DNA of 64,000 nt, from assembly GCA_038087875.1 (NCBI GenBank), contig CM075992.1, positions 6,884,001 through 6,948,000 on the forward strand, read 5' to 3'. Below the pieces are notes generated by a model. The model had not been told where the DNA came from. It did not search any database and saw nothing but the letters and a program-made list of their open reading frames with translations. The DNA comes from Malacoraja senta (taxonomy: Eukaryota). Below, piece by piece: positions 6,898-45,962 of the stretch (positions are counted from its first letter, which is position 1; every line of letters begins with the position of its first letter). The position numbers and the translations under genes are program-made.

Positions 6898-7810
6898 AGA
6901 AGGTACACAAAAATGCTGGAGAAACTCAGCGGGTGCAGCAGCATCTATGGAGCGAAGGAAATAGGCAACTTCGGGGCGAAACCCTTCTTCAGACTGATAG
7001 GGGGTGGGGAGAAGAAAGGAAAAAAGGAAAAAGGCGGAGGAGGAGCCCGAGGGCTGGGGGAGGGGAGGAGACAACCAGATGGCTGATGAAGGGGAGGGGA
7101 CAGCAAGGGCTAGCAGAATTGGGAGAATTCAATGTTCAAGCCCCCAGGATGTAGACTGCCCAAGCGGAATATGAGGTGTTTTCCTCCAATTTACGGTGTT
7201 GCTCGCTGTGGCCATGGAGGAGACCCAGGACAGAGAGGTCAGATACGGAAGGTCACCGGGAGGTCAGGTTGGTTATTGCGGACCGACCGGAGGTGTTCGG
7301 CGAAACGATCGCCAAGCCTCCGCTTGGTCTCACCGATGTAGATCAGCTGGCATCTAGAGCAGCGGATGCAATAGATGAGGTTGGAGGAGATGCAGGTGAA
7401 CCTCTGTCGCACCTGGAACGACTGCTTGGGTCCTTGAATGGAGTAGAGGGGGGAGGTGAAGGGACAAGTGTTGCATCTCTTGCGGTTGCAAGGGAAAGTA
7501 CCAGGGGAGGGTGTGGTATGGGAGGGAAGGGAAGAATTGACAAGGGAGTTACGGAGGGAGCGGTCTTTGCGGAAGGCAGACATGGGGGGAGATGGGAATA
7601 TGTGGGGAGTGGTGGGGTCACGTTGGAGGTGGCGAAACTGACGGAGGATCACTTGTTGATCCTCCGTCAGTTTCTAACTTTAAGAAGGAACTGCAGATGC
7701 TGGACAATCGAAGGTAGACAAAAATGCTCATTTTTCTTCGAAGGAAATTTCCTTCGCTCCATGGATGCTGCCTCACCCGGTGAGTTTCTCCAGCATTTTG
7801 TCTACCTTGG
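6898..7810 (-). mobile_element. Penelope-like element 3' part: GIY-YIG endonuclease, terminal repeat and an inverted terminal piece
   Basis: ORF 7239..7652, FTCISSNLIYCIRCSRCQLIYIGETKRRLGDRFAEH (GIY-YIG with Cys/His motif). Confidence 0.9.
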
Positions 7811-18531: not shown

Positions 18532-21490
18532 AAACATAGAAATAGGTGCAGGAGGAGGCCATTCGGCCCTTCGAGCCAGCACCGCCATTTATTGTGATCA
18601 TGGCTGATCATCCCCAATCAATATCCCGTGCCTGCCTTCTCTCCATATCCCTTGATTCCACTAGCCCCTAGAGCTCTATCTAACTCTCTCTTAAATCCAT
18701 CCAGTGATTTGGCCTCCACTGCCCTCTGTGGCAGGGAATTCCACAAATTCACAACTCTCTGGGTGAAAAAGTTTTTTCTCACCTCAGTCTTAAATGGCCT
18801 CCTAAGACTTTATTCTAAGACTGTGGCCCCTGGTTCTGGACTCGCCCAACATTGGGAACATTTTTCCTGCATCTATGGGTGACTTCAATCTACATATAGA
18901 TTGGGTGAATCAAATTGGCAGGGGTGCTGAGGAAGAGGATTTCTTGGAATGTATGCGGGATAGTTATCTAAACCAACATGTAGAGGAACCAACGAGAGAG
19001 CAGGCTATTCTAGACTGGGTATTGAGTAATGAGGAAGGGTTAGTTAGCAGTCTTGTTGTGCGTGCCCCCTTGGGCAAGAGTGACCATAATATGGTTGAGT
19101 TCTTCATTAGGATGGAGAGTGACATTGTTAATTCAGAAACAATGGTTCTGAACTTAAAGAAAGGTAACTTTGAGGGTATGAGACGTGAATTGGCCAAGAT
19201 TGACTGGCAATTAGTTCTAAAAGGGTTGACGGTGGATATGCAATGGAAGGCATTTAAAGACTGCATGGATGAACTACAAAAATTGTTCATCCCAGTTTGG
19301 CAAAAGAATAAATCAGAGATGGTAGTGCATCCGTGAATAACAAGGGAAATCAGGGATAGTATCAAAGCAAAAGATGATGCGTACAAATTAGCCAGAAAAA
19401 GCAGCATACCAGAGGACTGGGAGAAATTCAGAGACCTGCAGAGGAGGACAAAGGGCTTAATTAGGAAAGGGAAAATAGATTATGAAAGAAAACTGGCAGG
19501 GAACATGAAAACTGACTGCAAATGTTTTTATAGATATGTGAAGAGAAAGAGATTAGTTAAAACAAATGTAGGTCCCTTGCAGTCAGAAACAGGTGAATTG
19601 ATCATGGGGAACAAGGATATGGCGGACCAATTGAATAACTACTTTGGTTCCGTCTTCACTAAGGAAGACATAAATAATCTGCCGGAAATAGCAGGGGACC
19701 ACGGGTCAAAGGAGATGGAGGAACTGAGTGAAATCCAGGTTAGTCGGGAAGTGGTGTTGGGTAAATTGAATGGATTAAAGGCCGATAAATCACCAGGGCC
19801 AGATAGGCTGCATCCCAGAGTACTTAAGGAAGTAGCTCCAGAAATAGTGGATGCATTAGTGATAATTTTTCAAAACTCTTTAGATTCTGGAGTAGTTCCT
19901 GAAGATTGGAGGGTAGCAAACGTAACCCCACTTTTTAAGAAGGGAGGGAGAGAGAAAACGGGGAATTACAGACCAGTTAGTCTAACATCGGTAGTGGGGA
20001 AACTGCTAGAGTCAGTTATTAAAGATGGGATAGCAGCACATTTGGAAAGTGGTGAAATCATTGGACAAAGTCAGCATGGATTTACGAAAGGTAAATCATG
20101 TCTGACGAATCTTATAGAATTTTTCGAGGATATAACTAGTAGAGTGGATAGGGGAGAACCAGTGGATGTGTTGTATCTGGACTTTCAGAAGGCTTTCGAC
20201 AAGGTCCCACATAAGAGATTAGTATACAAACCTAAAGCATACGGTATTGGGGGTTCAGTATTAATGTGGATAGAGAACTGGCTGGCAAACAGGAAGCAAA
20301 GAGTAGGAGTAAACAGGTCCTTTTCACAATGGCAGGCAGTGACTAGTGGGGTACCGCAAGGCTCAGTGCTGGGACCCCAGCTATTTACAATTTATATTAA
20401 TGGCCTGGATGAGGGAATTGAAGGCAACATCTCCAAGTTTGCGGATGACACTAAGCTGGGGGGCAGTGTTAGCTGTGAGGAGGATGCTCGGAGGCTGCAA
20501 GGTGACTTGGATAGGCTGGGTAAGTGGGCAAATGTTTGGCAGATGCAGTATAATGTGGATAAATGTGAGGTTATCCACTTTGGTGGCAAAAACAGGAAAG
20601 CAGACTATTATCTAAATGGTGGCCGATTAGGAAAAGGGGAGATGCAGCGAGACCTGGGTGTCATGGTACACCAGTCATTGAAAGTAGGCATGCAGGTGCA
20701 GCAGGCAGTGAAGAAAGCGAATGGTATCTTAGCTTTCATAGCAAAAGGATTTGAGTATAGGAGCAGGGAGGTTCTACTGCAGTTGTACAGGGTGTTGGTG
20801 AGACCACACCTGGAGTATTGCATACAGTTTTGGTCTCCAAATCTGAGGAAGGACATTATAGCCATAGAGGGAGTGCAGAGAAGGTTCACCAGACTGATTC
20901 CTGGGATGTCAGGACTTTCATATGAAGAAAGACTGGATAGACTCGGCTTATACTCGCTAGAATTTAGGAGATTGAGAGGGGATCTTATAGAAACGTACAA
21001 AATTCTTATGGGGTTGGACAGGCTAGATGCAGGAAGATTGTTCCCGATGTTGGGGAAGTCCAGGACAAGGGGTCACAGCTTAAGGATAAGGGGGAAATCC
21101 TTTAAGACCGAGATGAGGAAAACCTTTTTCACACAGAGAGTGGTGAATCTCTGGAACTCTCTGCTACAGAGGGTAGTTGAGGCCAGTTCATTGGCTATAT
21201 TTAAGAGGGAGTTAGATGTGGCCCTTGTGGCTAAAGGGATCAGGGGGTATGGAGAGAAGGCAGGTACGGGGTATTGAGTTGGATGATCAGCCATGATCAT
21301 ATTGAATGGCGGTGCAGGCTCAAAGGGCCGAAGGGCCTACTCCTGCACCTATTTTCTATGTATCTATGTATCTATGTATCTAGCTGGTCCAGTCGTTTTA
21401 TAACTTTATATGTTTCCATAAGATCCCCCCTCATCCTAAACTCCAGTGAATACAAGCCTAGTCTTTTCAATCTTTCCTCTTATGACAGTC
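18532..21490 (-). mobile_element. Antisense CR1 3' fragment split by the 18875-21380 insertion (parts 18532-18874 and 21381-21490)
   Basis: The sequence cctgcatcta|gctggtccagt is continuous when the insert is removed; compare cctgcatctagcttgtccagt at 30890. Confidence 0.8.
18875..21380 (+). mobile_element. Young 5'-truncated CR1-clade LINE: ORF2 with endonuclease C-terminus and full RT, one in-frame stop at 19334-19336
   Basis: GDFN and SDHN endonuclease motifs; RT motifs YLDFQKAFD, GVPQGSVLGP and KFADD. ORFs 18875..19336 and 19505..21277 share one frame. (TATCTATG)n tail. Confidence 0.96.
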
Positions 21491-22264
21491 CTTTGACTTT
21501 GACTTTTGACTTTGAATAGGATTGTGAGATATGTTTGGCAGGGGGTGATGAGGGTGGGTAAGGGGTGGTGAGTGTTGAGTCAAGGCAGTGACATAGTTTG
21601 TGCAGGGGATGATGAGATATGTTGGCAGGGGGTATCAGGGTTACGGGGAGAAGGCAGGAGAATGGGGTTGAGAGGGAAAGGTAGATCAGCCAGAATTGAA
21701 TGGTGGAGTAGAATGGGCCGAATGGCCCAATTCCTCTCCTATAACCTATGAGCTTATGAGATGGGCACAAGTGTTTAGGGTTGGGCAAGGGTAGTGAGAT
21801 ACTGGGCAGAGGGTGGTGAGGGTTGATAGAGGGTGGTGAGATACATTGGGCAGGTTTAGTTTAGAGAACAGCATGGAAACAGGCTGTTCGGCCCATCGAG
21901 TCCACACCGACCAGTGATCGCCGCACATGAACACTATCCCACACACACACTAGGGACAATTATACATTCACACCAAGCCAATTAATCTACAAACTTGTAC
22001 GTGTTGGAGTGTGGGAGGAAACCGAAGATCTCGGAGAAAACTTGAGATGATCAGCCATGATCACATTGAATGGCGGTTATGGCTCGAAGGGCCGAATGGC
22101 CCTACTCCTGCACCTATTGTCTATTGTCCATTGTCCAAAACCCATGCTGGTCACTGGGAGAACATACAGACTCCGTACAGACAGCACCCGTAGTCGGGAT
22201 CGAACCTGGGTCTCTGACGCTGTGAGGCAGCAACTCTACCGCTACGAGGTGGCGAGATACTTAC

Positions 22265-22370
22265 AGTGGAGGGACTTAAAGCCGCTGCCTGATTCAGATG
22301 TTTGTGGAGCAAGGCAGCGATGGTCTTTCTGTCCGGATTCCACTGCAATGGAGAGGGCAGTGCTCCCGTC
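22265..22370 (-). CDS. KANK2: KANK2 last ankyrin exon (DGSTALSIAVESGQKDIAALLHKHLN...SPST) with a +1 indel at 22322-22323
   Basis: Acceptor gtgcag and donor ACT|GTAAGT; 106 nt against 105 expected. Confidence 0.9.
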
Positions 22371-22765
22371 CTGCACATGGGAAAACGTCAAAGCATCACA
22401 ACATGTGAAAACAGCTTGACCGGAGCAGACGTGGCCCGCAGCGGCACGGAGTGGCGGGGCAGCGGTGGAGGACACCGACAGCATCCCATGGCCACGCCGA
22501 CCCTGCACTCCAACCCAGTGCTGGAGTAACTCAGCGGGTCAGGCAGCATCTCTGGAGAGAAGGAATGGGTCGAGACTTCTTCAGACTCGAAACGTCACCC
22601 ATTCCTTCTCTCCAGAGATGCTGCCTGTCCCGCTGAGTTACTCCAGCATTTTGTGTCTATCGATGACAATGACTCTTGCCCAGTGGGTGCTGATCAGATG
22701 GGGGGAGGGGGTCACCACCCATGGGTGCCGTGTTGGGCAGTAGCCTCACTCACTCACTCACTCAC

Positions 22766-22965
22766 ATTGTCTGCCAGTGTTACGTTGCAGGCCGGCGTGG
22801 CGAGCAGGAGCGCGACGATCTCGGCGTGTCCGTGTTCACAGCACACATCAGTGCCGTCGAGCCGTCATCGTCTTGGACCCTGGCATCCGCCCCGCACGCC
22901 AGCCAGGGCCTTCACATCTCCGTGCGGCCGTGGCTGACCGCCAACATCAGTGCCGTCTGACCCGC
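22766..22965 (-). CDS. KANK2: KANK2 ankyrin exon (AGQTALMLAVSHGR...QDDDGSTALMCACEHGH...LADN) with three 1-nt indels
   Basis: Acceptor gggcag and donor AAT|GTGAGT. Conserved text is recovered only with -1 (~22915), +1 (~22903) and -1 (~22841) corrections; 200 nt against 201 expected. Confidence 0.9.
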
Positions 22966-22997
22966 CTGCCCGAGGGGAGAGAAGCACCAGAACGTTA

Positions 22998-23143
22998 AAC
23001 CCGACACCGCACGGTCAGTGGGTATGGAGACCGTACAACATCTCACTGCCTCCCACCAACACCGCTCAACCCGACACCGCACGGTCAGTGGGTATGGAGA
23101 CCGTACAACATCTCACTGCCTCCCACCAACACCGCTCAACCCG
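22998..23143. repeat. Perfect 70-bp tandem duplication
   Basis: Two identical units, aacccgacaccgcacgg...caccgctc. Confidence 0.95.
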
Positions 23144-23167
23144 TTACTGCCTGGGCAGTGGCACGGA

Positions 23168-23555
23168 GACTGAAACATATAAGATTGTTAAGGGCTTGGA
23201 CATGCTAGAGGCAGGAAACATGTTCCCGATGTTGGGGGAGTCCAGAACCAGGGGCCACAGTTTAAGAATAAGGAGTAAGCCATTTAGAACGGAGACGAGG
23301 AAACACTTTTTCTCACAGAGAGTGGTGAGTCTTGTGGAATCCTCTGCCTCAGAGGGTGGTGGAGGCAGGTTCTCTGGATGCTTTCAAGAGAGAGCTAGAT
23401 GGGCTCTTAAAAATAGCAGAGTCAGGGGAGATGTAGAGAAGGCAGGAACGGGGTACTGATTGGGGATGATCAGCCATGATCCACATTGAATGGCGGTGCT
23501 GGCTCAAAGGCCAAATGTCCTACTCCTGCACTTATTGTCTATTGTCTATTGTCTT
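23168..23555 (+). mobile_element. CR1 LINE 3' fragment
   Basis: ETYKIVKGLD...FFSQRVV and a (ctattgt)n tail. Confidence 0.85.
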
Positions 23556-24617
23556 TTGATTGTACAACCCGTATTACGGAGATGTTGCCAGGATTGGAGG
23601 GTCTGAGCTGTCGGGAGAGGTTGATGAGGCTGGGACTCTATCCCTTGCAGCGCAGGAAGATGAGGGGTGATCTTATAGAGGTGTATAAAATCATGAGAGG
23701 AAGAGATTGGGTCTAGACAGAGTCTCCTGCCCAGAGTAGGTGAACCCACCAACACTGTTCCCCCACCACTGGACGGGCAGTGGGCATGGAGATTGTACAG
23801 CGCGGCATTGCCTCCCACAGACACCATTAACTCCATCACTGGCTTGGCCAAGCTGGCCATCCGCCGGTCCTGGCGCCAGGAGGAAGAGGCCTCTTATTAC
23901 ACCTTATCTTGTTCTAAATGTTGTACCCGTTATCCTTTCTCTGTGGACTGGACTATTGTAATGTATAGCCTTGTCCACAACTGATTAGAATAAAGGTAGA
24001 AACAATGAACCGCAGGTGCTGGTTAATACACATAAGGACAGAAAGTGCTGGAGTAACTCAGCTGGTCAGGCAGCATCTCTGAAAAAAACATCTCTGGAGA
24101 ACCAATGACATACTTTTAGAAAAGATATGAGAAGGAATTTCTTTAGTCAGAGGGAGGTGAATTTGTGGAATTCATTGCCTCAGATGGCTGTGGAGGTCAA
24201 GTCAATGGGTATTTTTAAGGCAGAGATTAGCAGATACTTAATTGGTAAGGGTGTCAAGGGTGATGGGGAGAAGGGAGGAGAAGGGAAAGATAGATCAGCC
24301 ATAATTGAATGGAGTAGAATGGGCTGAATGGACTCGATGGGCCGAATGGTATAATTCTGCTCCTAGAACTTATGATTTATTCACCTCTGATAAGAAGAAA
24401 ATAAAGAAAAGAAAAGAAGAAGAAAAGAAGGCTCTCCTCCCGGCCCAAAATGTCACCTATCCATGTTCTTCAGGGATGCTGCCTTACCCGCTGAGTTACT
24501 CCAGCACTTTGTGTCCTTGTGAGCAGAGTAAGGGTTTGCGAAGTGCTGGGCCGGAGACTGACCGCTGGGCGGTGGGGAGGACAGGCGTGGGTGGGCTCGG
24601 CTGGCACTGGGACCCAC

Positions 24618-24760
24618 CTGGCTGGCCTTGGCGTTGACGTTACCCTGGCGGAAGAGTTGCATGACGGTCTGCATGTCGCTGTTGGTCTGCAGGGCAGCGA
24701 GCGATGCCAACATGATGGCGGTGTAACCCGCTTTGTTCTGCTTGTCCAGGTTGCAGGCGC
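24618..24760 (-). CDS. KANK2: KANK2 ankyrin exon ([21 protein letters not shown]...GNVNAKASQ)
   Basis: Conserved QNKAGYT.IML and NAKASQ; 143 nt, phase 1 to 0. Confidence 0.95.
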
Positions 24761-26139
24761 CTGGGGATGGAGAGCGGGCACAGGTTAGCGGGCACAATGC
24801 GCCACCCACCATCAGCACAACATGCTTCAACACGTCACCACCTACATACAAACCCGCGCACCTTTGGGATGTGGGCGGAAACCGGAGCACCCGTAGAAAA
24901 CCCACGCGCTCACAGGGAAAACGTGCAAACTGCACGAAGACAGCAGCAGAGGTCATGATCGAACCCTGGTCTCTGGCGCTCTGAGCCAGTCACTACTTCG
25001 GGGAGGCATGGTGGCGCAGCGGTAGAGTTGCTGCCTTACAGCGCCAGAGACCCGGGTTCAATCCCGATTACGGGTGCTGTTTGTGTGTGGAGTTTGTGCG
25101 TTCTCCTTGTGGCCTCGTGGGTTTCCTCCGGGTGTTCCGGTTTCCCCCAACATCATAAAGAGGTGTGGGTTAGTAGGTTGATAGGCCTCTATAAATTGTT
25201 GCCTAGTGTGTAGGGAGTGGATGAGAAATTGGGATAACATAGAACTAGTGTGAACGGGTGATCGATGGTCGGCATGTTCGGGGGGGGGGGGTGAAGGGCC
25301 TGTTTCCATGCTGTATCTCTAAACAAAAATTAAACTGCACTGAATGTTGCAATATTATCTGCCTCCATCAACTCCTCTGGCAGCTCGCACTGCACATCCA
25401 TCAACCATCTTACCCATCAGATAGGCTTTAATATTTTCATTAAAAATTAGCTTGTCCACATTTTACCCAAAACAGATACAATATAATGAAATCTTAGAGG
25501 TCATCGTCTCACAAGTCCAGAGACCCGGGTTCGATCCTGTCCTCGGGTGCTGTCTGTTTGGAGTTTGCACATTCTCCCTGTGAATGTGGGGGTTTCCTCC
25601 GGGTGCTCAGGTTTCCCACCCCATTCAGAAGACGTGCGGGTTTGGAATCTTCCTTTCTAAATTGCCCCTGATAGTGGAATCTTTAGGAAGATGATGGGTT
25701 TGTTACGAAAGTAAAACGTGTTTAGTGTGCGATTAGGTCAAATATGTATGTTCAATGGCTGAGCTAGTCTTGGTGGGCTGAAGTTCTGGTTTCCATGTAG
25801 TACGGCTCTATAATTTTGGTAAACCTTGAGATTTATTCCAGTTTATCACCAAGTTGGAGTCAGTTGCCTTACTGTATGGCGGGCGGCTGAGAACGGTCGA
25901 GGACATGCCACCGAGAACAAAGAGGGACCTGGAGTGGGGGTGGAGGACGCCGAGAGAATAAAGAGGAACCTGGCATGCGGGTCCACCAAGACAACAAAGA
26001 GGAACCATCGGGACTATATTGAATATTTTTGTAACTTTGTCGGCACCCTTTACATGGCGACTCTTTGCATACTTTGTGTATTGTATGCAAAACAAAGAAT
26101 TTTCACTGTCAAATACATACGACAATAAAACATCGTGCT

Positions 26140-26665
<526 letters not shown>

Positions 26666-26747
26666 TTGCTAAAGGCCGACTCCCACCCTTCCCTCGCTCC
26701 CAATGGAGGGGAACGGTGGAGAAGCAACAGGGAGGTGAGGGGTGTAC

Positions 26748-26967
26748 CTGTGTCCAGCAGGAGCTTGACAATGGGAAAGTTGGAGTGTGAGACGGTGTAG
26801 TGGAGTGTGGTGTTCCCGTTGCCGTCGGCCATGTTGACGATCAGCTCCAGGAGTTTTGGGGACATCGCCTTGAACACGGCCAGGTATCGCCGCACCATCT
26901 CCCCATCTGCTGCCTTGGGGCTGGACACCAGCAGCCACTCCTGCTGCACCGTGAGGTAGCTCACCCT
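26748..26967 (-). CDS. KANK2: KANK2 exon, ankyrin region start (RVSYLTVQQEW...NMADGNGNTTLHYTVSHSNFPIVKLLLDT)
   Basis: Highly conserved KANK sequence; 220 nt, phase 0 to 1; canonical AG/GT. Confidence 0.95.
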
Positions 26968-27187
26968 CTGTTCGGACATTGGAGGGTGAAGACTTCATTA
27001 GAAACATTACAGCGTAACAGCTCCACCCCACCCCATACAGTCTCCCCCCCCTTCAGCAGGTCCAAACCCACCTCGCCACAATTAGCAGAGACCCCAGCCA
27101 GCAATTTGCACACAACACACTACACACCCTCGCCGAGCTCTCCCCTGTAAATCCATAACCAACTGGCCTAGACTACTACAGCTACTC

Positions 27188-27225
27188 CAGTCTGAAGAAG
27201 GGTCTCGACCCGAAACGTCACCCAT
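27188..27225 (+). ncRNA. Minimal type I hammerhead ribozyme-like motif (representative copy of the Penelope terminal repeat)
   Basis: CTGAAGA, then stem II GGGTC-TC-GACCC, then GAAAC and a GTC triplet with palindromic ACGT. Stem I is weak. Confidence 0.55.
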
Positions 27226-28565
27226 TCCTTCTCTCCAGAGATGCTGCCTGTCCCGCTGAGTTACTCCAGCATTTTGTGTCTATCAAAAGGGATAATGTGA
27301 TGGGGTAGGGAGCAAGGGTTTAGATAACATAGTGAGAGGGAACAATCAGGAACGCCCTGCTTCAATAGTAACTGTTAAAATGGAACTAATTACGTGAACA
27401 AACAATAAAAATCTGTAAGATATGGGGTAAGCAGCCACATGGGCGGAAATCGCTTTTAAAACATGGGGGGGGGGGGGCAGCCCCCCGCTCCCCCCCCCCC
27501 GGATTGCCACCAATATAATGAAGAATCATCTACACACCAGTCATTCCCTCTTCTCCCCTCTCCCATCAGGCAGCAGATACAAGAGTATGAAAGCATGCAT
27601 TTCCCACTGTTATCAGACTACTGAATGGATCCTCCCATAAATTAGGGACTAGTCTCCATCTTCCAACCAACTTCATTATGAAGCTTGCGCTTTTTCCACC
27701 TGCACTTTCACTGAAACTGTAACACTATATTCTGCAGTCTGGTATTTTTCCCTTTGTGTACTTGATTGTGCCCATGTATAGTATGATTTGATTTGACTGG
27801 ATAGTCAAATTTGACCAGATAGTCAAAGTATTCGCTCTACGTGACAAAATGTAATTGACACCAAAAACAGGAAGTTTTGGACTGATGGGATCTCTCTTTC
27901 AAAGTTGGACCACTTTTCTTTAATGGTATTCTGGTAATCAGCTGTCTTTCACATTTCACCAGTGTCTATCCACCAGACTCAGGAATAGCTTCATCCCCTC
28001 TGTTATCAGGCTTCTGAACGATCCTTCCATAAGCTAGGCTACTGTCCGATTCACCTCTACCCCGTTGTGGACATTGGACTTTGTCTCTGGAACTGATGCG
28101 CTACAATGCTGAGAACTATATTCTGCACTCTGTATCTTCCTCTTTGCTCTACCTGTTTTACGAATTTTGGTTGATTGTATGTATCTAGGGTATTATCTGA
28201 TCTGCTTGGATTTGCAAAACAAAGCAGTTCACTGTACACGTGAGAATAATAAACCTATAACTGAATACTGGAGATCTGCAGGGGATAGACACAAAATACT
28301 GGAGTAATTCAGCGGGTCAGGCAGCATCTCTGGAGAGAATGAATACATGTAAGTAGTGTTTTGGGTCGGGATCCTTCATCAAGGGTCTCGACCCGAAATG
28401 TCACCTATTCCTTTCCTCCAGAGATGCTGCCTGACCCGCTGAGTTACTCCACCATTTTGTGTCTATCTTCGATGTAAAGCAGCATCTCCTGCACAGATCT
28501 ACTGGGGAGTTGTTCTGATGCCACATCAGCAGGGGGGAGGACTGATAGACAGTGAGAAGCCATAC

Positions 28566-28653
28566 CACGTCTTTGTTCGTGAAGCCGTCTGGATCATTCA
28601 GGTGTTTCTGCAGAGTTACACATGCCGAGACCAAGCCCTCTGTCAGTTCAAAC
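28566..28653 (-). CDS. KANK2: KANK2 exon (FELTEGLVSACVTLQKHLNDPDGFTNKDV)
   Basis: Matches the KANK pre-ankyrin helix (ELS.DL.SAC..L..YL). Acceptor ttgcag and donor GTG|GTATGG; 88 nt. Confidence 0.9.
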
Positions 28654-28779
28654 CTGCAAGAGAGTGAAGAGTGAGTGAGGAGAGACCCCAGCCGTCCCTT
28701 TCCCAAACGCAGCACGCACAGCGACAGCCCGCTCATCATACAGCAACGGCTTTTATTCCCAGGCTCCCACTTTGTGCTG

Positions 28780-29316
28780 GTGTGTGTGTGTGAGAGTGAG
28801 TGTGTGTGTGAGTGTGTGAGAGTGAGTGTGTGTGAGATTGAGTGTGTGTGTGAGTGTGTGAGAATGAGTGTGTGTGTGAGTGTGTGTGTGTGTGAGAGTG
28901 AGTGTATGAGCGTGTGTGTGTGAGTGCGTGTGTGTGAGAGTATGTGTGTGAGTGAGCATGTGTGTGTGAGAGTGAGTATGTATGTGCGAGTGAGTGTGTG
29001 TGAGAGTGAGCGAGTAAGTGTGTAAGAGTGAGTGTGTGCATATGAGTGAGTGTGTGAGAATGTTTGAGAGTGAATGAGTGTGTGTGAGTGAGTGTGTGAG
29101 AGTGAGTGAGTGTGCATGTGAGTGAGTGGGTGTGCATATGAGTGAAAGTGTGTGTGTGAGTGAGTGAGTGAGAATGAGTGAGTGAGTGGGAGTGAGTGAA
29201 TGTTTGAGTGAGTGAGTGTGTGGGAGTGAGTGTGCGCATGTGTGTGAATGAGTGAGTGTGTGGGAGTGAGTGAGTGAGTGAGTGAGTGAGTGAGTGAGTG
29301 AGTGAGTGAGTGAGTG
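28780..29316. repeat. (TG)n/(TGAG)n compound repeat
   Basis: Direct reading. Confidence 0.97.
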
Positions 29317-29632
29317 CATGTACGGGGGCGGCACGGTGGTGCAGCGGTAGAGTTGCTGCATCACAGCGCCCGAGACCCGGATTCAATCCTGACTACAGGT
29401 GCTGCCTGTACAGAGTTTGTACGTTTTGCCTGTGACTACGTGGGTTTTCTCCAGGTTCTCCGGTTTCCTCCCACACTGCAAAGACGTACAGGTTCATAGG
29501 TCATAGACAGTCACAGGTAGAACGTGCAAACTCCACACACAGACACAGTAGAGGTCATGAATTGAACCCGGATCTCTGGCGCTGTGAGGCAGTGTCTCTG
29601 TCCGCTGCGCCACTGTGCCGTTTAATAAGTAA

Positions 29633-29866
29633 AGGGCCTGTCCCACTTAGCACATTTTTCGGCGACTGCCGGCATCATTGACTGACGTATCAGGTCACCG
29701 AAAAATTCGTGGCGTGATGCGGCGTGATGACGTATTGACGCACAGTGTTTTTTCAAGTGTCGCAACATTTTTTTATCGCCGCTGGATTTTGAAATGTTCA
29801 AAATCTTTTGCCGACCCTGATATGATGCCGCAGTCGCTGAAAAAATCGCCATGTGGGACAGGCCCT
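29633..29866. mobile_element. PIF/Harbinger-type MITE
   Basis: TIR AGGGCCTGTCCCAC, flanked by TAA and TTA. Confidence 0.85.
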
Positions 29867-29943
29867 TTACCATGTGTACAGAAAGTTAACAGTTTAAGAT
29901 CTGTGAAGGCGGGGCAAAAGTTAGAAAATGACAATTCACGTAC

Positions 29944-30392
29944 GTGCCGCTGTCTGTTTTCTGCTGCGGGTTCAGTATTTCAGGCTGAGCGATCGTTTCT
30001 GGCTGGCCTGGCCCCGACGTGACTCTTGCCTCTGTTTCACCTCCTGGCACCACCTCCTTCACACGTTCCTCGCCAGTGACATTCCGCACTTGCTTCTCTC
30101 CCTCAGACATGCTCCTGCTCTGCTCCGCTGATTCCCGTACGCTCTCCGTCTCCCGCGCAGGCTCCGGCGGGTTCCCCGAGCTCCCAGCTTCCCGCTGGGG
30201 CTCGGCTGGGACGGGCGGTGGGCTCTGGGTCTCCGGCGCTGAGCCTGCCCCGGGCGTCTCGCTCCCTGCTCTCTCCACCTGCTCTCCGGGCAGTCTCTCG
30301 CTGGCCTCGTGGTAATCACTCTCTGTGCTCTCCCCTCCGACTCACTCGGCCCACTCTCAGTACCGGACTCTTCCGAAGACGTCGACTCGTAC
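29944..30392 (-). CDS. KANK2: KANK2 exon (YESTSSEES...ESDYHEASE...DSGT); 1-nt frameshift at the C4 run 30332-30335
   Basis: Acceptor tgctgtag|G TAC GAG and donor AC|GTACGT. Length is 449 where the phases require 450. Confidence 0.82.
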
Positions 30393-30564
30393 CTACAGCA
30401 AAGAAAACTCACTCTCAGAGACATCTTCCAAGCAAGCCCCCCCCCCCCCCCTTCCTCCATGGCTCATGGGCTCCAGGAAAGGGCGCAGAGAAGATTTACA
30501 AGGATGTTGCCAAGACTCGGGTGCCTGGAGCTGTAGAGAAAGGTTGAGCAGGATAGGACTCTAT

Positions 30565-31081
30565 TCATAGAAACAGAAACATAGAAAATAGGTGCGGGAG
30601 GGGGGCCATTTTGCCATTCATTCTGATCATGTCTGATCATCCACAATCAGTAATCCGTGCCTGCCTTCTCCCCATCTCCCTTGATTCCGCTAGCCCCAGA
30701 GCTCTATCTAACTCTTTTAAATTCATCCAGTGAATTGGCCTCCACTGCCTTCCGTGGCAGAGAATTCCACAAATTCACAACTCCCTGAGTGAAAATGTAT
30801 TTTCTCATCTCAGTTTTAAATTGCCTCCCCTTTATTCTTAGACTGTGGCCCCTGGTTCTGGACTCCCCCATCATTGGGAATTTTTTTTCCCTGCATCTAG
30901 CTTGTCCAGTCCTTTTATAATTTTACGTTTCTATAAGATTCCCCCTCATCCTTCTAAATTCCAGTGAATACAAGCCCACTCTTTCCAATCTTTCCTCATA
31001 TGACAGTCCCGCCATCCCGGGGATTAACCTCATGAACCTACGCTGCACTGCTTCAATAGCAAGGATGTCCTTCCTCAAATT
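30565..31081 (-). mobile_element. CR1 LINE 3' fragment
   Basis: Reverse-complement match to the 3' end of the 18875-21380 element. Confidence 0.85.
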
Positions 31082-31811
31082 ATTCCTTGGAGGGCAGGAG
31101 GATGAGGGATGATCTTACAGAGGTGTATAAAATCATAAGAGGAATACCTGGGGGGAAACGCACAGTCTTTGACCCAGAGTAGTGTCATTGAGTGGTACAG
31201 TGTGGAAACAGGCCCTTTGGCCCAACTTGCACAAACCGGCAGGGGAATCGAGAACCATAGGTCTTAAGGTGAGGGGGGGGAAAGATTTCATAGGAACCTG
31301 AGGAATAACCTGTTCACACAATGGGTGGTGGGTGTATGGAACGAGCTGCCGGAGGAGGTAGTTGAGGCAGGGATTAAGAAACAATTAGAAAGGTACATGG
31401 ATAGGACAGGTTTAGAGGGATATGGGCCAAATGCAGGCAGGTGGGACTAGTGTAGATGGGCATGTTGGTTGGCATGGGAAAGTTGGGCTGAAGGGCCTGT
31501 TTCCACGCTGTATAATTCTAAATGATGCTGCAACTCAAGAGGCACAAGGTGCTGCAATCTGGAGCTATGAAAGGATAGAGCAGGTCAGGCAGTATCTGTG
31601 GAGGGAAATAAGACACATATTGCCAAAGTACCTCAGCGGGTCAGGCAGCATCTCTGAAAAACATGGATTGGTGAAATTTTGGATCAAAGATGAAGGGTCC
31701 CAACCCGAAACATCGCCTGGTCCATATTCTCCAGAGAAGCTGTCTGATCTGTTGAGTTACCCCAGCACTTTGTGTCTTCTTTTGTAAACCAGTGCCTGCA
31801 GTTCCTTGTGA

Positions 31812-32020
31812 AACAAGGAACTGCAGATGCTGGAAAATCGAAGGTAGACAAAAGTGCTGGAGAAACTCAGCGGGTGCAGCAGCATCTATGGAGCGAAGGA
31901 AATAGGCAATGTTTTGGGCCTGAGCGTTCTGAAGAAGGGTTTCGGCCCAAAACGTTGCCTATTTCCTTCGCTCCATAGATTGCTGCTGCACCCGCTGAGT
32001 TTCTCCAGCACTTTTGTCTA
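31812..32020. repeat. Penelope-derived foldback element (second subfamily)
   Basis: Inverted arms ctggagaaactcagcgggtgcagcagc and gctgctgcacccgctgagtttctccag. Confidence 0.8.
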
Positions 32021-33108
32021 CGTCCTTGTTTCACCATCATTGCAGGGAATGGGCAGATGATGTTTCGGGTTGGGATGTTCCTTCAGATTGATGGAGAAGG
32101 GGGGAAGAAAGCTGGAGAACGAGAGGAGAGCAGATGGAGGAAGTACTGAAGTTCGAATATTGAAGGGCTTGGATAGAGTGGATGTGGAGAGGATGTTTCC
32201 ACTGGTGGGAGAGTCTAGGACTAGAGGTCACAGCCTCAGAATTAAAGGATGTTCTTTTAGGAAGGAGATGAGGAGGAATTTATTTTGTCAGAGTGTGGTG
32301 AATCTGTGGAATTCTTTGCCACAGACGGCTGTGGAGGCCAAGTCGATGGATATTTTTAAGGTGGAGATAGATAGATACTTGATAGTACGGGTGTCAGGGG
32401 TTATGGGAAGAAGGCCCGGAGAATGGGTTGAGGTGAGAGAGATAGATCAGCCATGATTGAATGCGGAGTAGACTTGATGGGCCGAATGGCCTAATTCTGC
32501 TCTTATTACTTATGACGTTACGTCAGCGGGTCAGGACGGTTGACGTTTGGGTCAGGACCTTTTCATCCAGATGACGGGTCTTGTCTGGAAATGTTGACAG
32601 TCCACTTCCCTTTACAGGTGAATGGGGTTAATAGAACATAGAACCGTACAGCACAGCACAACATACAACCCAGTGGTATGAACGCTGAATTCTCTAAAAT
32701 TATACAACACTCCCCTCTCTCTCACACTCTTGCCCTCTTTCATCCATTAAAAGACAGTGAACCCAGTTCCAACAACATATTCCTCTTGGGATCACACCAT
32801 CCCGAGACAACAATTGGCATATCAGGGAACTTCCCTACCTGAGGTCACCTGTTGCTGGCCTTGATTTGTCCTGGTCTTTTCCTGTTTCCAGTTCCCCCCC
32901 CCACACCCCTACTACAATCAGTCTGAGGACCCGAAACGTCTCCGATCAATTCTCTCCAGAAATGCTGCCTGACCCACTGAGTCGTTCCAGTACTTTTTGT
33001 CTTTCTATAATGCCGAGCCGAACTGATTTTCAGACTTTAGAGATACAGCGCAGAAACAGGGGCCTATAAACAACTGAGTCTACGCCGACCAGCCACCCCG
33101 CACACTAA

Positions 33109-33302
33109 TGGGCCTGTCCCACTTATGCGATTTTTTTGCCGGCTTTTCGGCACCCGTCATAGTCGCAGCAGGTCGCTGAAATTTTTCAACATGTTGAAAA
33201 TCCAGCGGTGACCAGAAATAGGTACGACTCTTTGGGCGACTACTCACGACCATACAGGCGTCAACTCGCCCCGCGACATGTCGCGTAAGTTGGACAGGCC
33301 CT
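33109..33302. mobile_element. PIF/Harbinger-type MITE inserted in a SINE
   Basis: Same TIR, TAA duplication; the SINE sequence resumes after it. Confidence 0.85.
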
Positions 33303-33601
33303 TAACACTATCCCACATACTAGGAACAATTTTACAATTTAAAACAAAGCCAATTAACCTACAAACCTGCTTGTCTTTGGTGTGTGGGAGGAAACTGGAA
33401 GCACTCCTGGAAAAAACCCACACGGTCTATGAACAACGAATCTCCTGATCTCATCTCAATCTGTCACACTCCAGTTTAAAGAGTTCAACTCAGTGAGGAT
33501 TTCACCGTGGGCCATTTCTACTGAAGGCAGAGGGATCCGGAGGTTTAACATTGGCCAGCGATGCGGGAGGGTATAGGCAGACAGTGGGGTCAGACACTCA
33601 C

Positions 33602-33713
33602 CCGCCATTGACCCCGATGAACTGCAGGCTCTTTTTCGTAGGAGGGCTGTCGAGAAGCGCTCCATTCTCCTTCTTTTTCATGATGGACTTCAGCTGCGCT
33701 CCATGTGGGGAGA
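33602..33713 (-). CDS. KANK2: KANK2 exon (VSPHGAQLKSIMKKKE...SLQFIGVNGG)
   Basis: Conserved KANK motifs LKSIMKK and LQFxGVNGG. Acceptor ctttttctccacag and donor GG|GTGAGT; 112 nt, phase 1 to 2. Confidence 0.9.
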
Positions 33714-33888
33714 CTGTGGAGAAAAAGGGGAAGGCTTCACCATGGAGACTATGTCCACAGTCCATCATCCTGTGGGCAACAATGCACGTGGGCGAATCTT
33801 GAATCAACCCACGTCACCTTAATCCCACCTCAGCAACACTCTTGCACGAACATGGACTAGTGCTCTAAACATATTTTTGCCTTCCACT

Positions 33889-34117
33889 GAAGATAGACAC
33901 AAAATGCTGGAGTAACTCAGCGGGACAGGTAGCATCTCTGGAGAGAAGGGATGGGTGACGTTTCAGCTCGAGACCTTTCTTCAGACTGATCCAGAAGGAG
34001 GGTCTCGACCCGAAACGTCACCCATTCCTTCTCTCCAGAGATGCTGCCTGTCCCGCTGAGTTACTCCAGCATTTTGCCTCTCTCTTCGGTTTAAACCAGC
34101 ATCTGCAGTTCCTTCCG
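33889..34117. repeat. Penelope-derived foldback element (~100-bp inverted arms)
   Basis: The arm aaaatgctggagtaactcagcggg...ttcttcagact is followed by its reverse complement. Confidence 0.85.
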
Positions 34118-34697
34118 ACACACCTTGTTTTTGCACAATCTTCTTTTCACTATCGTATGATTTATGGGATATTTTATGTTTTGTGTGTTATCTTACTGTG
34201 TGCCTGTGATACGGCTTTAGTTTGAGTATTAGAGATACAGCGTGGAAACTGGCCCTTCGGCCCACCGAGTCTGCACTGACCAACGATCCCCGCACGCCAA
34301 CACGATCCGACACACACTAGGGACAATTTACAATTTTACCAAGCCAATTAGCCCATAAACCTGTACGTCCTTGGAGTGCGGAAGGAGACCAGAGCACCCG
34401 GAGAAAACCCACGCAGGTCACAGGGGGAGCGTACAAACTCTGTAAGAGGTGGTGAATCTGTGGAATTCATTGCCACAGAAGATGGTGGAGGCCAAGTCAA
34501 TGGATATTTTTTAAGGCAGAGATTGCTATTTTTGATTAGTATGGGTGTCAGGGGTTATGGGGAGAAGGCAGGAGAATGGGGTTGAGAGGGAAAGATCGAT
34601 CAGCCATGATTGAATGGTGGAGTAGACTTGATGGGCCGAATGGCCTAATTCTTCTCCTAAAACTCATGAACATGAGCACGTCTTGATCGAGTGTTAC

Positions 34698-34910
34698 CTG
34701 GCCTTGTGGAGTCATCCGAGGATGGGTCCGGCTCCCTCAGTCTCACCAGATGCCGACTGCCCTCCTCTGGGTGTTGGTGCTGGGCCGGGCCTGGCCTTGA
34801 GGCGCCCAGTTCGTGCACCGTCTCCGCGCTGGAGGCCGAGACTGCCCGAGGCACCTCAGGGACCCGAGGGGGCTGCACCGGAGCCACAGCCTCGTCGGCC
34901 CCATGAGAAT
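34698..34910 (-). CDS. KANK2: KANK2 internal exon (DSHGADEAV...DDSTRP), low-complexity linker
   Basis: 213 nt, phase 1 to 1, open frame, GC-rich island among repeats. Acceptor tttcaag and donor G|GTAAC. Confidence 0.7.
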
Positions 34911-35216
34911 CTTGAAACAGAAACATCACAACGTGAGGAAACCCCTTCCCATTGCCTGGGGTCCACAACCTTCTGAACTGAAATGTATTCAGACTTTAGA
35001 CCTTAGAGACACAGTGCGGAAACAGGCCCTTCGGCCCATCGAGTCTGCCCCGACCGGCAATGACCCCGACCTATGAACCCGTCAGATTTTTATCTTCCCC
35101 TCCCCCTCTCCACGTAATTCCTTCCTCTGGCTTCACGATTTGTAACTCTTCAATCCTTTTGTCTCACGCCTTCTGTTTTAATTCCAGGCCTTTGTTTCAA
35201 CCATATGCCTTTCAAA

Positions 35217-35770
35217 ACCTGGAGTATTGTGTGCAGTTTTAGTCCCCTAATTTGAGGAAGGACATTCTTGCCATTGAGGGAGTGCAGCGCAGGTTTACAA
35301 GGTTAATTCCCAGGATGGCGGGACTGTCATATGCTGAGAGAATGGAGCAGCTGGGCTTGTACACTCTGGAGTTTAGAAGGATGAGAGGGGATCTCTTTGA
35401 AACATATAAGATTGTTAAGGGCTTGGACACGCTAGAGGCAGGAAACATGTTCCGATGTTGGGGGAGTCCAGATCCAGGGGCCACAGTTTAAGAATAAGGG
35501 GTAAGCCATTTAGAATGGAGACGAGGAAACACTTGTTCACCCAGAGACTTGTGAGTCTGTGGAATTCTCTGCCAGACGGCGGTGGAGGCCGGTTCTCTGG
35601 ATACTTTCAAGAGATAGCTAGATAGGGCTCTTAAAAATAGCAGAGTCAAGGGAAATGGGGAGAAGGCAGGAACGGGGTACTGATTGGGGATGATCAGCCT
35701 TGATCACAGTGAATGGCGGTGCTAGCCCGAAGGGCTGAATGGCCTACTCCTGCACCGATTGTCTATTGTC
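35217..35770 (+). mobile_element. CR1 LINE 3' fragment
   Basis: LEYCVQF..RKDILAIEGVQRRFTRLIP and a CR1 tail. Confidence 0.88.
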
Positions 35771-35860
35771 TAAAACTCTGCCATATTTAGCCGAGTTTTG
35801 CTTTTTGAGCAGTGTATTTCAGTCTGCCCATAGTCAATGAATGTGACTCTGGTTCCCCTA

Positions 35861-36086
35861 AGATAGACACAAAATGCTGGAGTAACTCAGCGGGACAGGC
35901 AGCATCTCTGGAGAGAAGGAATGGGTGACGTCTTGGGTTGAGACCCTTCTTCTGGATCAGACTGAAGAAGGGTCTTGACCCGAAACGTCACCCATTCCTT
36001 CTCTCCAGAGATGCTGCCTGTCCCGCTGAGTTACTCCAGCATTTTGTGTCTATCTTCGGTGTAAACCAGCATCTGCAGTTCCTTCC
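35861..36086. repeat. Penelope-derived foldback element
   Basis: Near-perfect inverted arms; hammerhead-like core at 35962-35989. Confidence 0.85.
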
Positions 36087-36424
36087 TATACATTGCGTCT
36101 GGTACTCCCCACTTGGTTTCTCCAGGATTTCTCAGCGGGATACAAGGAACTCTCACCCACTAGTTTGGGATGGATTTCAGTGCTATTTGGAGAAAGGGAA
36201 CTGAAAGTCTGAAGCCCTGTGGCACAGTCCCTCTCATTATCCCAGTTTAGTGGCAACGGCTGGTAATTGCCTTCAGATGCTTGCGATCCCAGTCCAAACA
36301 TGTAACTACACAAATAAAACCACTTCCTATTCCGCTTCATTCCTGTCCTGATAAACCCAGTCAGTGTACATCCCTGAGCCCATTGCAGAACCTGCCCATC
36401 CCACCTCCTCATCACAGCCACGAC

Positions 36425-37495
36425 TGTGTGTGTCTGAGTGTGAGTGTGAGTGTGTGGGAGTGTGTGTGAATGCGTGGGAGTGTGTGTGAGCATGTGTGAA
36501 TGTGTGGGAGTGTGTGTGAGCGTGTGTGAATGTGTGGGAGTGTGTGAGTGTGTGTGAGTGTGGGGGTGTGTGTGAGTGTGTGTGAGTGTGTGGGGTGTGT
36601 GGGGGGTGTGGGGGTGTGTGTGAGTGTGAGTGTGTGTGGGAGTGTGTGGGGGTGTGTGTGAGTGTGTGTGAGTGTGTGGGGGTGTGTGTGAGTGTGTGTG
36701 AGTGTGTGGGGTGTGTGGGGGTGTGTGTGAGTGTGAGTGTGTGGGGTGTGTGGGGGGTGTGGGGGTGTGTGTGAGTGTGTGAGTGTGTGTGAGTGTGTGG
36801 GGGGTGTGGGGGTGTGTGTGAGTGTGAGTGTGTGTGGGAGTGTGTGGGGGCGTGTGAGAGTGTGTGCGAGTGTGTGAGTGAGTGTGAGTGTGTGGGAGTG
36901 TGTGGGAGTGTGAGTGAGTGTGAGTGTGTGGGAGTGTGTGGGAGTGTGTGTGAGTGTGTGGGAGTGTGTGAGTGAGTGTGAGTGTGTGTGAGTGTGTGGG
37001 AGTGTGTGGGAGTGTGTGGGAGTGTGTGAGTGAGTGTGAGTGTGTGTGAGTGTGTGTGAGTGTGTGGGAGTGTGTGGGAGTGTGTGAGTGAGTGTGAGTG
37101 TGTGGGAGTGTGTGGGAGTGTGTGTGAATGTGTGGGAGTGTGTGTGAGTGTGAATGTGTGTGAGTGAGTGTGAGTGTGTGGGAGTGTGTGGGAGTGTGTG
37201 GGAGTGTGTGGGAGTGTGTGGGGGTGTGTGCGAGTGTGTGGGGGTGTGTGGGAGTGTGTGGGGGTGTGTGCGAGTGTGTGAGTGAGCGTGAGTGTGTGGG
37301 AGTGTGTGGGGGTGTGTGTGCGTGCGTGAGTGACTATTGTGCGAATGTGCGAGGGCAATATTGCTTGTGTATGCGTGAGTGAGTGTAAGTGAGTATCAGT
37401 GTGTGTGCGTGAGTGAGGGTGTGTGAGCGAGGTTGTGTGAACGAGTGTGTGCGAGCAAGTGTGAGCGTGTGTGTGTGAATGAGTGTGTGAGTGAA
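36425..37495. repeat. (TG)n/(GTGTGGGA)n compound repeat
   Basis: Direct reading. Confidence 0.97.
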
Positions 37496-37915
37496 CAAGA
37501 TGACCAGCGGGAGGAGGTTCCCCAACCAGTCCCTTGAATTTCCCCCCAACCCGCAGCGAACCCCTCAAAACCCCTCAGCCCACTCTCCCCACCACTCGCC
37601 GAGACCCCAAACTCCACCCAACCCCCCACCACCCCGCCTCCCCCACCCCCTCCTCCAACCCCCATCCCCGATGCTCCCAAACCTCACTGTCCCCTCCCAA
37701 ATCCCCACCCCAGCCCCCAGCTCACCAACCACCCCCCACCCAAACCCCCAACTCAACTCCCCCAACACCTTCCTCCCCACTGCAACCCCCCACCTCAATC
37801 CCCCGGACTCCCCCAACTTAACTCCCCCAACACCTCCCTCCCCCCCCCAACCAACCCACCAGCCATCCCCCCCTTCCCCTTCCCCCACCCACTTCACCCC
37901 TCAACCCTCCCGTAC

Positions 37916-39427
<1,512 letters not shown>

Positions 39428-44199: not shown

Positions 44200-44502
44200 G
44201 GACTTTAGACTTTAGAAATACAGCGCGGAAACAGGACCTTCGGCCCACCGCGTCCTCGCCGACCACCGATTACCCCGTACACTAACACTATCCTACACAC
44301 TAGGGACAATTTACAATTTTACCAAAGCCAATTAACCTACAAGCCCTGTATGTCTTTGGAGTGTGGGAGGAAACTGGGGCACCCGGAGTAAACCCACGCG
44401 GTCACAGGGAGAACGGACAAACTCCACACAGAGAGCACCTGTAGTCAGGATGGAACCGCGGTCTCTGGCGCTGTGAGGCAGCAACTCTGCCACCGTGCTG
44501 CC
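44200..44502 (-). mobile_element. HE1/V-SINE-type SINE
   Basis: Full-length reverse copy. Confidence 0.85.
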
Positions 44503-45671: not shown

Positions 45672-45962
45672 ATGTTACACCCCAGCGGTATGAATATTGA
45701 CTTCTCTAACTTAAAGTAACCTTTGCTTTCCCTCTCTCTCCATCCCTCCCCCACCCTAGTTCTTCGACCAGTCTGACTGTCCTCCTGATTACATTTCATC
45801 TCTGTATGCTTCATTGTCACATTCCCTAACCTGAGAATGATCTATTCTGCATTTCTTTGTTCCTCATCCCCTTTGATGTCTCATATTCACACCTTACCCT
45901 TCCATATCTCTGTGACTCCCTCTCCCCTGACTGTCAGTCCGAAGAAGGGTCTCGACCCGAAA
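45672..45962 (+). mobile_element. Penelope-like element extreme 3' fragment
   Basis: LHPSGMNIDFSNLK*, pyrimidine-rich UTR and a degenerate hammerhead-like core at ~45938. Confidence 0.75.

What the first reader, a model, noticed from the sequence alone, without database searches (positions are those of the whole stretch)
27188..27290. Abundant Penelope-derived repeat carries a minimal hammerhead ribozyme core
Seen: the motif CTGAAGA-A-GGGTCTCGACCC-GAAAC-GTC, or close variants, recurs across the window. Plus-strand copies lie at ~1492, 11132, 12875, 27192, 35962 and 58468, and minus-strand copies at ~463-492, 49449-49478 and 50863-50892. It lies on the sense strand just 3' of GIY-YIG ORF ends (49582, 45718 and the 7239 fragment). 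Stem II varies between subfamilies (GGGTTTCGGCCC, GGGTCCCGACCC) while keeping the GGG/CCC pairing. Established: CUGANGA, GAAA and NUH form the hammerhead core, and Penelope-like elements carry minimal type I hammerheads with a palindromic ACGT that can act as dimers. Inference: this genome has amplified a short non-autonomous ribozyme-bearing retroelement, and several copies are transcribed inside KANK2 introns. Stem I is only 2-3 bp in most copies, so activity is uncertain.
Basis: partly seen in the sequence, partly recalled or inferred. Interest (0 to 1): 0.7.

Follow-up and report, generated by a model that had tools for sequence, protein, structure and literature searches.

The report
Skate Penelope retroelement hammerhead stubs
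The repeated motif is real: it is the small self-cutting-RNA signature at the tail end of a known kind of jumping gene (Penelope-like), scattered here as dozens of short, decaying stubs in a skate or ray genome, and the copy in question faces the wrong way to be read as part of the KANK2 gene.

Summary
Confirmed: 27192-27219 (+) is a minimal type I hammerhead motif at the start of a 97-nt repeat with 57 hits in the window. The repeat is the 3' end (pseudo-LTR plus optional tail) of an endonuclease-bearing Penelope-like retrotransposon, Neptune-type by its linker motif; best protein hits are elasmobranch. Related elements carry the same motif after the ORF stop (24 of 56 loci; 0 antisense) with strong covariation between families. 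A model built only from them ranks this copy second. Within the window the copies decay neutrally: core no better conserved than tail, no two-sided stem II change. Helix I is 2 bp and the monomer is predicted to misfold. KANK2 runs on the minus strand, so this copy is antisense; 0 of 9 sense intronic copies pass the descriptor. Twelve tight head-to-head palindromes, with the tail on one arm in 11 of 12, match the published Penelope insertion pattern. Verdict: new member of a known kind (Cervera and de la Pena 2014); cleavage untested; independent non-autonomous element not shown.

The parts
27188..27284 (+). Solo 5'-truncated Penelope-like stub (pseudo-LTR end without tail), in a KANK2 intron, antisense to the gene; no target-site duplication found
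27190..27191 (+). Helix I 5' strand (2 bp with 27220-27221)
   Evidence: family majority letters
27192..27199 (+). [quoted passage not shown]
27200..27211 (+). Helix II, 4 bp with a 4-nt loop, G10.1-C11.1 at the base
27212..27219 (+). GAAA, palindromic 15.2-16.2 in place of helix III, and GUC; predicted scissile bond between 27219 and 27220
   Evidence: numbering from PMC4209133
49388..50044 (-). Longer 5'-truncated copy: broken GIY-YIG ORF remnant (stop 49584-49582), pyrimidine-rich spacer, the best-formed hammerhead of the window (C3 at 49477, helix I 3 bp)
6899..7680 (-). Second endonuclease-linked copy (stop 7112-7110; hammerhead with 2-nt deletion), with a 40-nt fold-back at its 5' end and a further small palindrome upstream (7682-7808)
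45676..45962 (+). ORF end (stop 45717-45719), spacer and broken hammerhead 5' half of a third subfamily
32664..33006 (+). Fourth copy joined to an ORF-end remnant; helix II deleted
35857..36088 (.). Head-to-head palindrome of two stubs (96-nt arms, 95% complementary), tail on the right arm only, inside KANK2
33886..34116 (.). Head-to-head palindrome with the same junction as the 35955 pair in opposite orientation
22250..39412 (-). Host gene KANK2, coding span (9 exon blocks); holds 18 of the 57 hits, 9 sense and 9 antisense

Best explanation
The unit is the 3' terminal 95-127 nt of a C-terminal-endonuclease Penelope-like element (Neptune type) that has been very active in skates/rays. Shown: the motif sits 105-220 nt after the GIY-YIG stop, is kept with covariation between related families, and the stubs have two 3' end classes about 30 nt apart. 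Inferred by analogy with the anole element PAc (PMC11167929): the element's protein nicks DNA and starts reverse transcription at one of two internal sites downstream of the hammerhead; synthesis usually stops early, mostly at or just past the hammerhead, and often folds back or is joined head to head to a second short cDNA, giving palindromes with the tail on one arm. The hammerhead is under selection only in the active master elements, where it probably cleaves weakly and only with help (dimer through ACGU or the element's protein), because the naked monomer prefers another fold. Most templates were uncleaved when copied. Once inserted, the stubs are passengers that decay, first at CpGs; the copy at 27188 is antisense to KANK2 and has no evident function.
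For: Endonuclease remnants match RT-plus-GIY-YIG proteins, 64-71% to shark and ray proteins, with the CX4CxxC linker that marks Neptune/Nematis (PMC8557442, passages). Motif after the ORF stop in 24 of 56 related loci, 0 of 56 antisense, 0 of 65 ORF controls; L006 has it on both sides of a 902-aa ORF. Core-only search: 27 of 56 loci, helix II pairs 26,26,27,26 of 27 and helix I pairs 27,25,27 of 27 without pairing being demanded. Twelve chosen representatives: 98.8% paired, 38 two-sided changes, 0 of 500 shuffles, slid controls 21-43%. Model from 10 non-window loci: this copy E=2e-6, 30 of 31 hits are family copies. Tail in 23 of 49 copies; on exactly one arm in 11 of 12 tight pairs, p about 0.003; 13 head-to-head pairs within 30 nt against 1.5 expected; arms more alike than unrelated copies, p=0.005 for 11 pairs. 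Neutral decay: non-CpG core 378/402 vs tail 1842/2028, p=0.82; G12 lost in 11 of 45. Monomer: helix II probability about 0.001, active fold -3.9 vs -12.1 kcal/mol. 44 of 57 hits cover the scissile position.
Against: No full-length element or RT is in the window and no genome was available, so clade rests on a motif and on homologs, not on an RT tree. The pile-up of 5' ends at the motif (40 of 57; references began at -5, so partly a floor; largest listed loose-end pile in all four runs at 49479) is sharper than random truncation predicts and is not explained by published work I read. One junction recurs at independent loci, which fits re-mobilised palindromes. The PAc mechanism comes from the Poseidon clade. 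The 12 rows were picked by me and are related, which inflates the shuffle test. The active dimer could not be scored (one search returned no valid energy).
Confidence: 0.8

Rival explanations
1. A separate non-autonomous mini-element (solo or palindromic) with its own master copies, starting at an initiator-like TCAGT just before the core and mobilised in trans by the Penelope-like protein; in the palindromic form either strand offers the priming signals.
For: 40 of 57 5' ends at -5..+10; only 7 of 17 examined upstream flanks are pyrimidine-rich and 4 reach the ORF end; summed contig depth over the stub is several times that over most of the endonuclease region in all four runs (not a copy number); junction pattern found 4 times vs 0.38 expected, two exact at 33979 and 35955 with the tail on different arms, one hit being an ordinary element end. 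The initiator consensus is recalled, not tested.
Against: 5' ends are spread over 15 nt, junctions of the other pairs all differ, at least three sequence types match those of endonuclease-linked copies, and the one-sided tail plus inverted 5' copy is the published signature of ordinary insertions.
Confidence: 0.2
2. The intronic copies act as ribozymes that cut or regulate KANK2 pre-mRNA.
For: 18 hits lie inside the KANK2 coding span, 9 on the transcribed strand; 33989(-) keeps all core bases.
Against: Both descriptor-passing intronic copies are antisense; 0 of 9 sense copies pass (Fisher p=0.47); 33989(-) has a broken helix II and is locked in a -173 kcal/mol hairpin; core decays like flanks; minimal monomers showed no cleavage in PMC4209133.
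Confidence: 0.02
3. A non-LTR retrozyme: tandem hammerhead repeats processed to circular RNA.
For: Retrozymes derive from pseudo-LTRs and were reported in one chondrichthyan (preprint 10.64898/2026.07.22.740005).
Against: Only 3 same-strand neighbours within 250 nt and none with two intact motifs; neighbours are mostly inverted; the motif is minimal, not canonical.
Confidence: 0.04
4. The motif is a chance match within a purine-rich repeat end.
For: No Rfam hammerhead family hits the window even at E up to 10; no within-window covariation; the strand does not fold better than shuffles (z=0.38).
Against: Same motif, place and strand in distant relatives with full covariation; the L001 family matches the Acropora Neptune hammerhead listed in the supplement of PMC4209133.
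Confidence: 0.01

Closest known systems
Minimal hammerheads (min-HHR) in pseudo-LTRs of metazoan Penelope-like elements (Cervera and de la Pena 2014, PMC4209133)
   Same: Core, extra nucleotide after A9, G10.1-C11.1, no helix III, palindromic 15.2-16.2, helix I of 2-3 bp (2-6 bp in their Fig. S3), position after the endonuclease ORF, mostly solo truncated copies, some in opposite-strand pairs.
   Different: No cartilaginous fish among the rows of their Table S1 and Fig. S3 as I read them; density here is far higher (57 hits in 64 kb against 4,000-9,000 motifs per genome in coelacanth and Xenopus, though those were descriptor hits); about half the copies are in tight palindromes.
Neptune clade of Penelope-like elements (Craig et al. 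2021, PMC8557442)
   Same: C-terminal GIY-YIG with CX2-5CxxC linker; 5' truncation; inverted 5' copy; 30-40 bp tail at one end.
   Different: Nematis shares the linker and no RT tree was built; no microsatellite targeting was tested; copies are extremely short.
PAc, Poseidon element of the green anole (Frangieh et al. 2024, PMC11167929)
   Same: Hammerhead followed about 95-125 nt later by two 3' end classes; uncleaved RNA as main template; predicted misfolding of naked RNA fits a protein-assisted ribozyme.
   Different: Other clade (no linker); in PAc the ORF starts in helix II, which could not be checked here; activity there is measured, here not.
Non-LTR retrozymes (PMC7229834; preprint 10.64898/2026.07.22.740005)
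   Same: Non-coding, hammerhead-bearing, related to pseudo-LTRs.
   Different: Retrozymes are head-to-tail arrays of 170-400 nt units, mostly with canonical hammerheads; this family is dispersed or inverted, about 100-130 nt, minimal.

Membership tests
Minimal type I hammerhead of PLEs | CUGANGA, GAAA and NUH core | tested here: met
   14 of 32 core-spanning copies intact
Minimal type I hammerhead of PLEs | Helix II with G10.1-C11.1 and a nucleotide between 9 and 10.1 | tested here: met
   (36 of 39 paired at 10.1-11.1)
Minimal type I hammerhead of PLEs | No helix III; palindromic 15.2-16.2 | tested here: met
   C-G in this copy; 30 of 42 window copies and 25 of 27 relatives complementary
Minimal type I hammerhead of PLEs | Short helix I | tested here: met
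   2 bp here and in the family majority; 2-bp cases are listed in Fig. S3 of PMC4209133
Minimal type I hammerhead of PLEs | Compensatory change between families | tested here: met
   (6 of 7 pairs with two-sided change)
Minimal type I hammerhead of PLEs | Compensatory change or excess core conservation among this genome's copies | tested here: not met
   expected for dead copies, so it speaks against function of the copies, not against the family
Minimal type I hammerhead of PLEs | Self-cleavage (dimer or protein-assisted) | not testable with these tools
   only contigs were available; weak hint from 3-5 of 15 truncated 5' ends near the scissile bond
EN+ Penelope-like element | GIY-YIG endonuclease C-terminal to a PLE-type RT | tested here: met
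   endonuclease remnants in window (below or at Pfam cut-off); RT only in homologs
EN+ Penelope-like element | Hammerhead in the terminal repeat on the sense strand | tested here: met
EN+ Penelope-like element | Optional 30-40 bp tail and inverted 5'-truncated copy | tested here: met
Neptune clade | CX2-5CxxC linker | tested here: met
   shared with Nematis
Neptune clade | RT phylogeny with named references | not tested
   no reference set was available as stored sequence; indirect: relatives carry the motif listed for Acropora Neptune
Non-LTR retrozyme | Head-to-tail arrays with two or more intact hammerheads | tested here: not met
   (window only)
Canonical hammerhead (Rfam) | Match to a curated model (helix III, loop-loop contacts) | tested here: not met
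   0 hammerhead families among 40 matches at E up to 10
Independent non-autonomous PLE derivative | Fixed own 5' end and lineage separate from autonomous subfamilies | tested here: inconclusive

The most novel reading that the evidence does not exclude
Skate/ray genomes hold a self-propagating palindromic mini-retroelement made of two head-to-head hammerhead-plus-tail units, mobilised from either strand by a Neptune-type protein, whose 5' boundary is set by the hammerhead itself (a stop for reverse transcription or a start of transcription), with a minority of copies starting exactly at the scissile bond as fossils of cleavage in vivo. At very high copy number it would be a natural mutational scan: strand bias of intact versus broken motifs in introns, and 5' ends at the cleavage site, would test whether minimal hammerheads cut in vivo.
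Probability: 0.2. Interest if true: 0.5.

Novelty: new member of a known kind. Interest (0 to 1): 0.2.

Why it matters
As it stands it extends a known association (minimal hammerheads in Penelope-like terminal repeats) to a very abundant batoid family. Its use is practical: what these hammerheads do is still open (PMC8557442, PMC11167929), and a family this dense allows genome-scale tests of in vivo cleavage and of how inverted 5' copies arise. The long intronic hairpins may also be a source of double-stranded RNA. Nothing here points to a role in KANK2.

Tried and rejected
No own genome held, so all counts are for one 64-kb window. Exact or degenerate motif scans found nothing in metagenome contigs or viral contigs; the protein scan of viral contigs found no relative. 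Rfam: no hammerhead. Expression: no RNA holder listed; the runs laid are contigs and cannot show RNA ends, strand or level. Intron idea: the family majority shows GT at the ORF stop and a pyrimidine tract plus AG just before the core (places 49585 and 49480), like the D. virilis intron ending at helix I, but the predicted 107-nt skip is not among the 15 joints shown (289 not shown); a 101-nt skip in one contig fits microhomology as well; none of 17 upstream flanks looks like a spliced copy; left open. Dimer energy evaluation failed. Automatic subfamily sorting failed, all rows fell in one class; subfamilies are by eye. The per-column labels part B were shifted by one and were redone. No target-site duplication over 4 nt at 27188. 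Literature: 7 searches showed no paper describing this batoid family's hammerhead; the little skate genome paper has 0 occurrences of 'Penelope' in its main text; subscription journals, Repbase and Dfam were not searchable, and the 2026 preprint's supplements (one chondrichthyan sampled) were closed and may list it. Earlier-finding look-ups by sequence and by seven words returned nothing.

Full report
Observation. The motif stands at 27192-27219 (+). An HMM from 20 window copies finds 57 hits; with the long fragments the family covers about 11% of the window. A strict minimal descriptor passes 11 sites, 6 of them with 2 bp or more of helix I, against none in 30 simulated windows. No Rfam hammerhead model hits, as expected for a motif without helix III.

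What it belongs to. Four copies continue upstream through a pyrimidine-rich spacer into the end of a GIY-YIG ORF (49477-, 6992-, 45939+, 32923+); only 49477 has an intact core. The remnants hit GIY-YIG weakly in Pfam and match 66 longer proteins, 64-71% to shark and ray proteins, many with RT domains. The alignment shows a Penelope-type RT, a C-terminal endonuclease and the CX4CxxC linker, which marks Neptune and Nematis rather than Poseidon (PMC8557442, passages). KANK2 hits point to a batoid, probably a skate. In 80 related loci from metagenomes, 24 of the 56 with enough sequence have the sense motif 70-294 nt after the stop, none antisense, none in 65 ORF controls; L006 has it on both sides of a 902-aa ORF. 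Searching for the core alone gives 27 of 56, and pairing then appears unasked in nearly all helix I and II positions, with NUH in 25 of 27. Twelve representatives that I chose give 38 two-sided changes and 0 of 500 shuffles, with slid controls at 21-43% paired; relatedness inflates such tests, but the pairs flip among G-C, C-G, A-U and U-A. The commonest relative matches the Acropora Neptune motif in the supplement of PMC4209133. A model made from 10 non-window loci ranks 49477 first and this copy second; 30 of its 31 hits are family copies.

State of the copies. Among window copies the non-CpG core is 378/402 conserved against 1842/2028 in the downstream part (p=0.82), G12 is lost in 11 of 45 and CpG sites stand at 329/418; helix II shows only a one-sided U-A to U.G change (6 of 42) apart from two A-U cells at the base pair. 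So the copies decay neutrally and selection acts on master elements. Contigs of four runs, coded as four organisms, show the same family majority: A at the third upstream position in about 95% and A1.1 in about 70%, so helix I is 2 bp. The monomer is predicted to pair its purine-rich core with the downstream pyrimidine tract; helix II has probability about 0.001. This fits the report that minimal monomers do not cleave and dimers cleave weakly (PMC4209133, parts 1-2 and supplement read) and that the anole ribozyme needs the element's protein (PMC11167929, parts 1-2 read).

Architecture. 3' ends fall in two classes near +90-96 and +123-127; 23 of 49 copies have the tail. Thirteen head-to-head pairs lie within 30 nt against 1.5 expected; in 12 tight pairs the tail is on exactly one arm 11 times and arms resemble each other more than other copies. 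Inverted 5' copies, junction palindromes and a one-sided tail are described for Penelope-like elements (PMC8557442 and PMC3846280, passages), and the two end classes mirror the two internal RT start sites of PAc. Such palindromes fold into hairpins of -173 to -195 kcal/mol that bury the motif; they are not the active dimer. 40 of 57 5' ends lie at -5..+10 (bounded by my references), and the largest listed loose-end pile is at that place in all four runs, although divergent spacers of other subfamilies add to it. Of 15 copies truncated further down, 3 start at +28/+29 and 5 within +27..+29 by my reading of the junctions (p=0.012 and 0.0006 against a flat 60-nt range): a weak hint of cleaved templates, confounded by helix I microhomology. 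One junction recurs at 33979 and 35955, with a related one at 491, the only sign of re-mobilised palindromes.

KANK2. Exons map from 39412 to 22250 on the minus strand. The copy at 27188 lies between the exons at 28661-28485 and 26967-26746 and is antisense. Of 18 hits in the coding span, 0 of 9 sense and 2 of 9 antisense pass the descriptor (p=0.47). Whether upstream copies lie in a 5' intron is unknown.

Mechanism and verdict. Shown: identity, position, between-family conservation, decay, orientation, insertion pattern. Inferred: nicking and internal priming by the element's protein, early stop near the hammerhead, fold-back or twin priming, assisted cleavage only in master RNAs. Not shown: any cleavage or transcription. 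It works like, and by every tested feature is, a minimal hammerhead of a Penelope-like pseudo-LTR; it is not a retrozyme array. Seven literature searches showed no description of this batoid family; other papers seen: PMC7229834 and PMC10115646 (passages), PMC2377424 (abstract), the 2026 preprint (parts 1-3; supplements closed). An earlier scan note on another genome reached a like reading; it is not independent support. New member of a known kind; interest 0.2.

Noticed in passing
window 49585 and 49480 (-); 45716 and 45938 (+): The spacer between ORF stop and hammerhead looks like a spliceosomal intron in the family majority (GT at the stop, pyrimidine tract, CAG one base before the core), as in D. 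virilis Penelope; no spliced form was seen.
   Followed up: partly
window 22843 and 22330 (-): The last two KANK2 coding exons each show a frame change against skate homologs P0067/P0068: assembly errors or real lesions.
   Followed up: no
proteins P0014 and P0049: RTP3-like proteins of a skate and of a sevengill shark both end in a piece of this Penelope-like endonuclease; annotation artefact or an old exonised fusion.
   Followed up: no
protein P0007: A shark read-through model ends in a peptide resembling the translation of this motif, suggesting the same hammerhead at the same place in sharks; inference only.
   Followed up: no
L002:126 (+): A different hammerhead-like motif with a longer helix II region and 6-bp helix I upstream of a related ORF.
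   Followed up: no
window 50798-50925 (-) and 9022-9130 (-): Copies flanked by 10-15 nt direct repeats like target-site duplications; the first also has an inverted tail remnant at its 5' end (by eye).
   Followed up: no
window 61008-61178 and 63599-63782: Three-armed structures in which a hammerhead 5' half is folded back on itself near GAAAC.
   Followed up: no
window 59004-60036 (-): Tc1/mariner-type transposase in two overlapping ORFs.
   Followed up: no
window 19337-21277 (+): Uninterrupted 646-aa LINE reverse transcriptase frame; CR1-like by recall.
   Followed up: no
window 44390-44775, 24844-25178, 2250-2488, 29349-29599: Inverted pairs of other repeats with 130-180 nt spacers.
   Followed up: no
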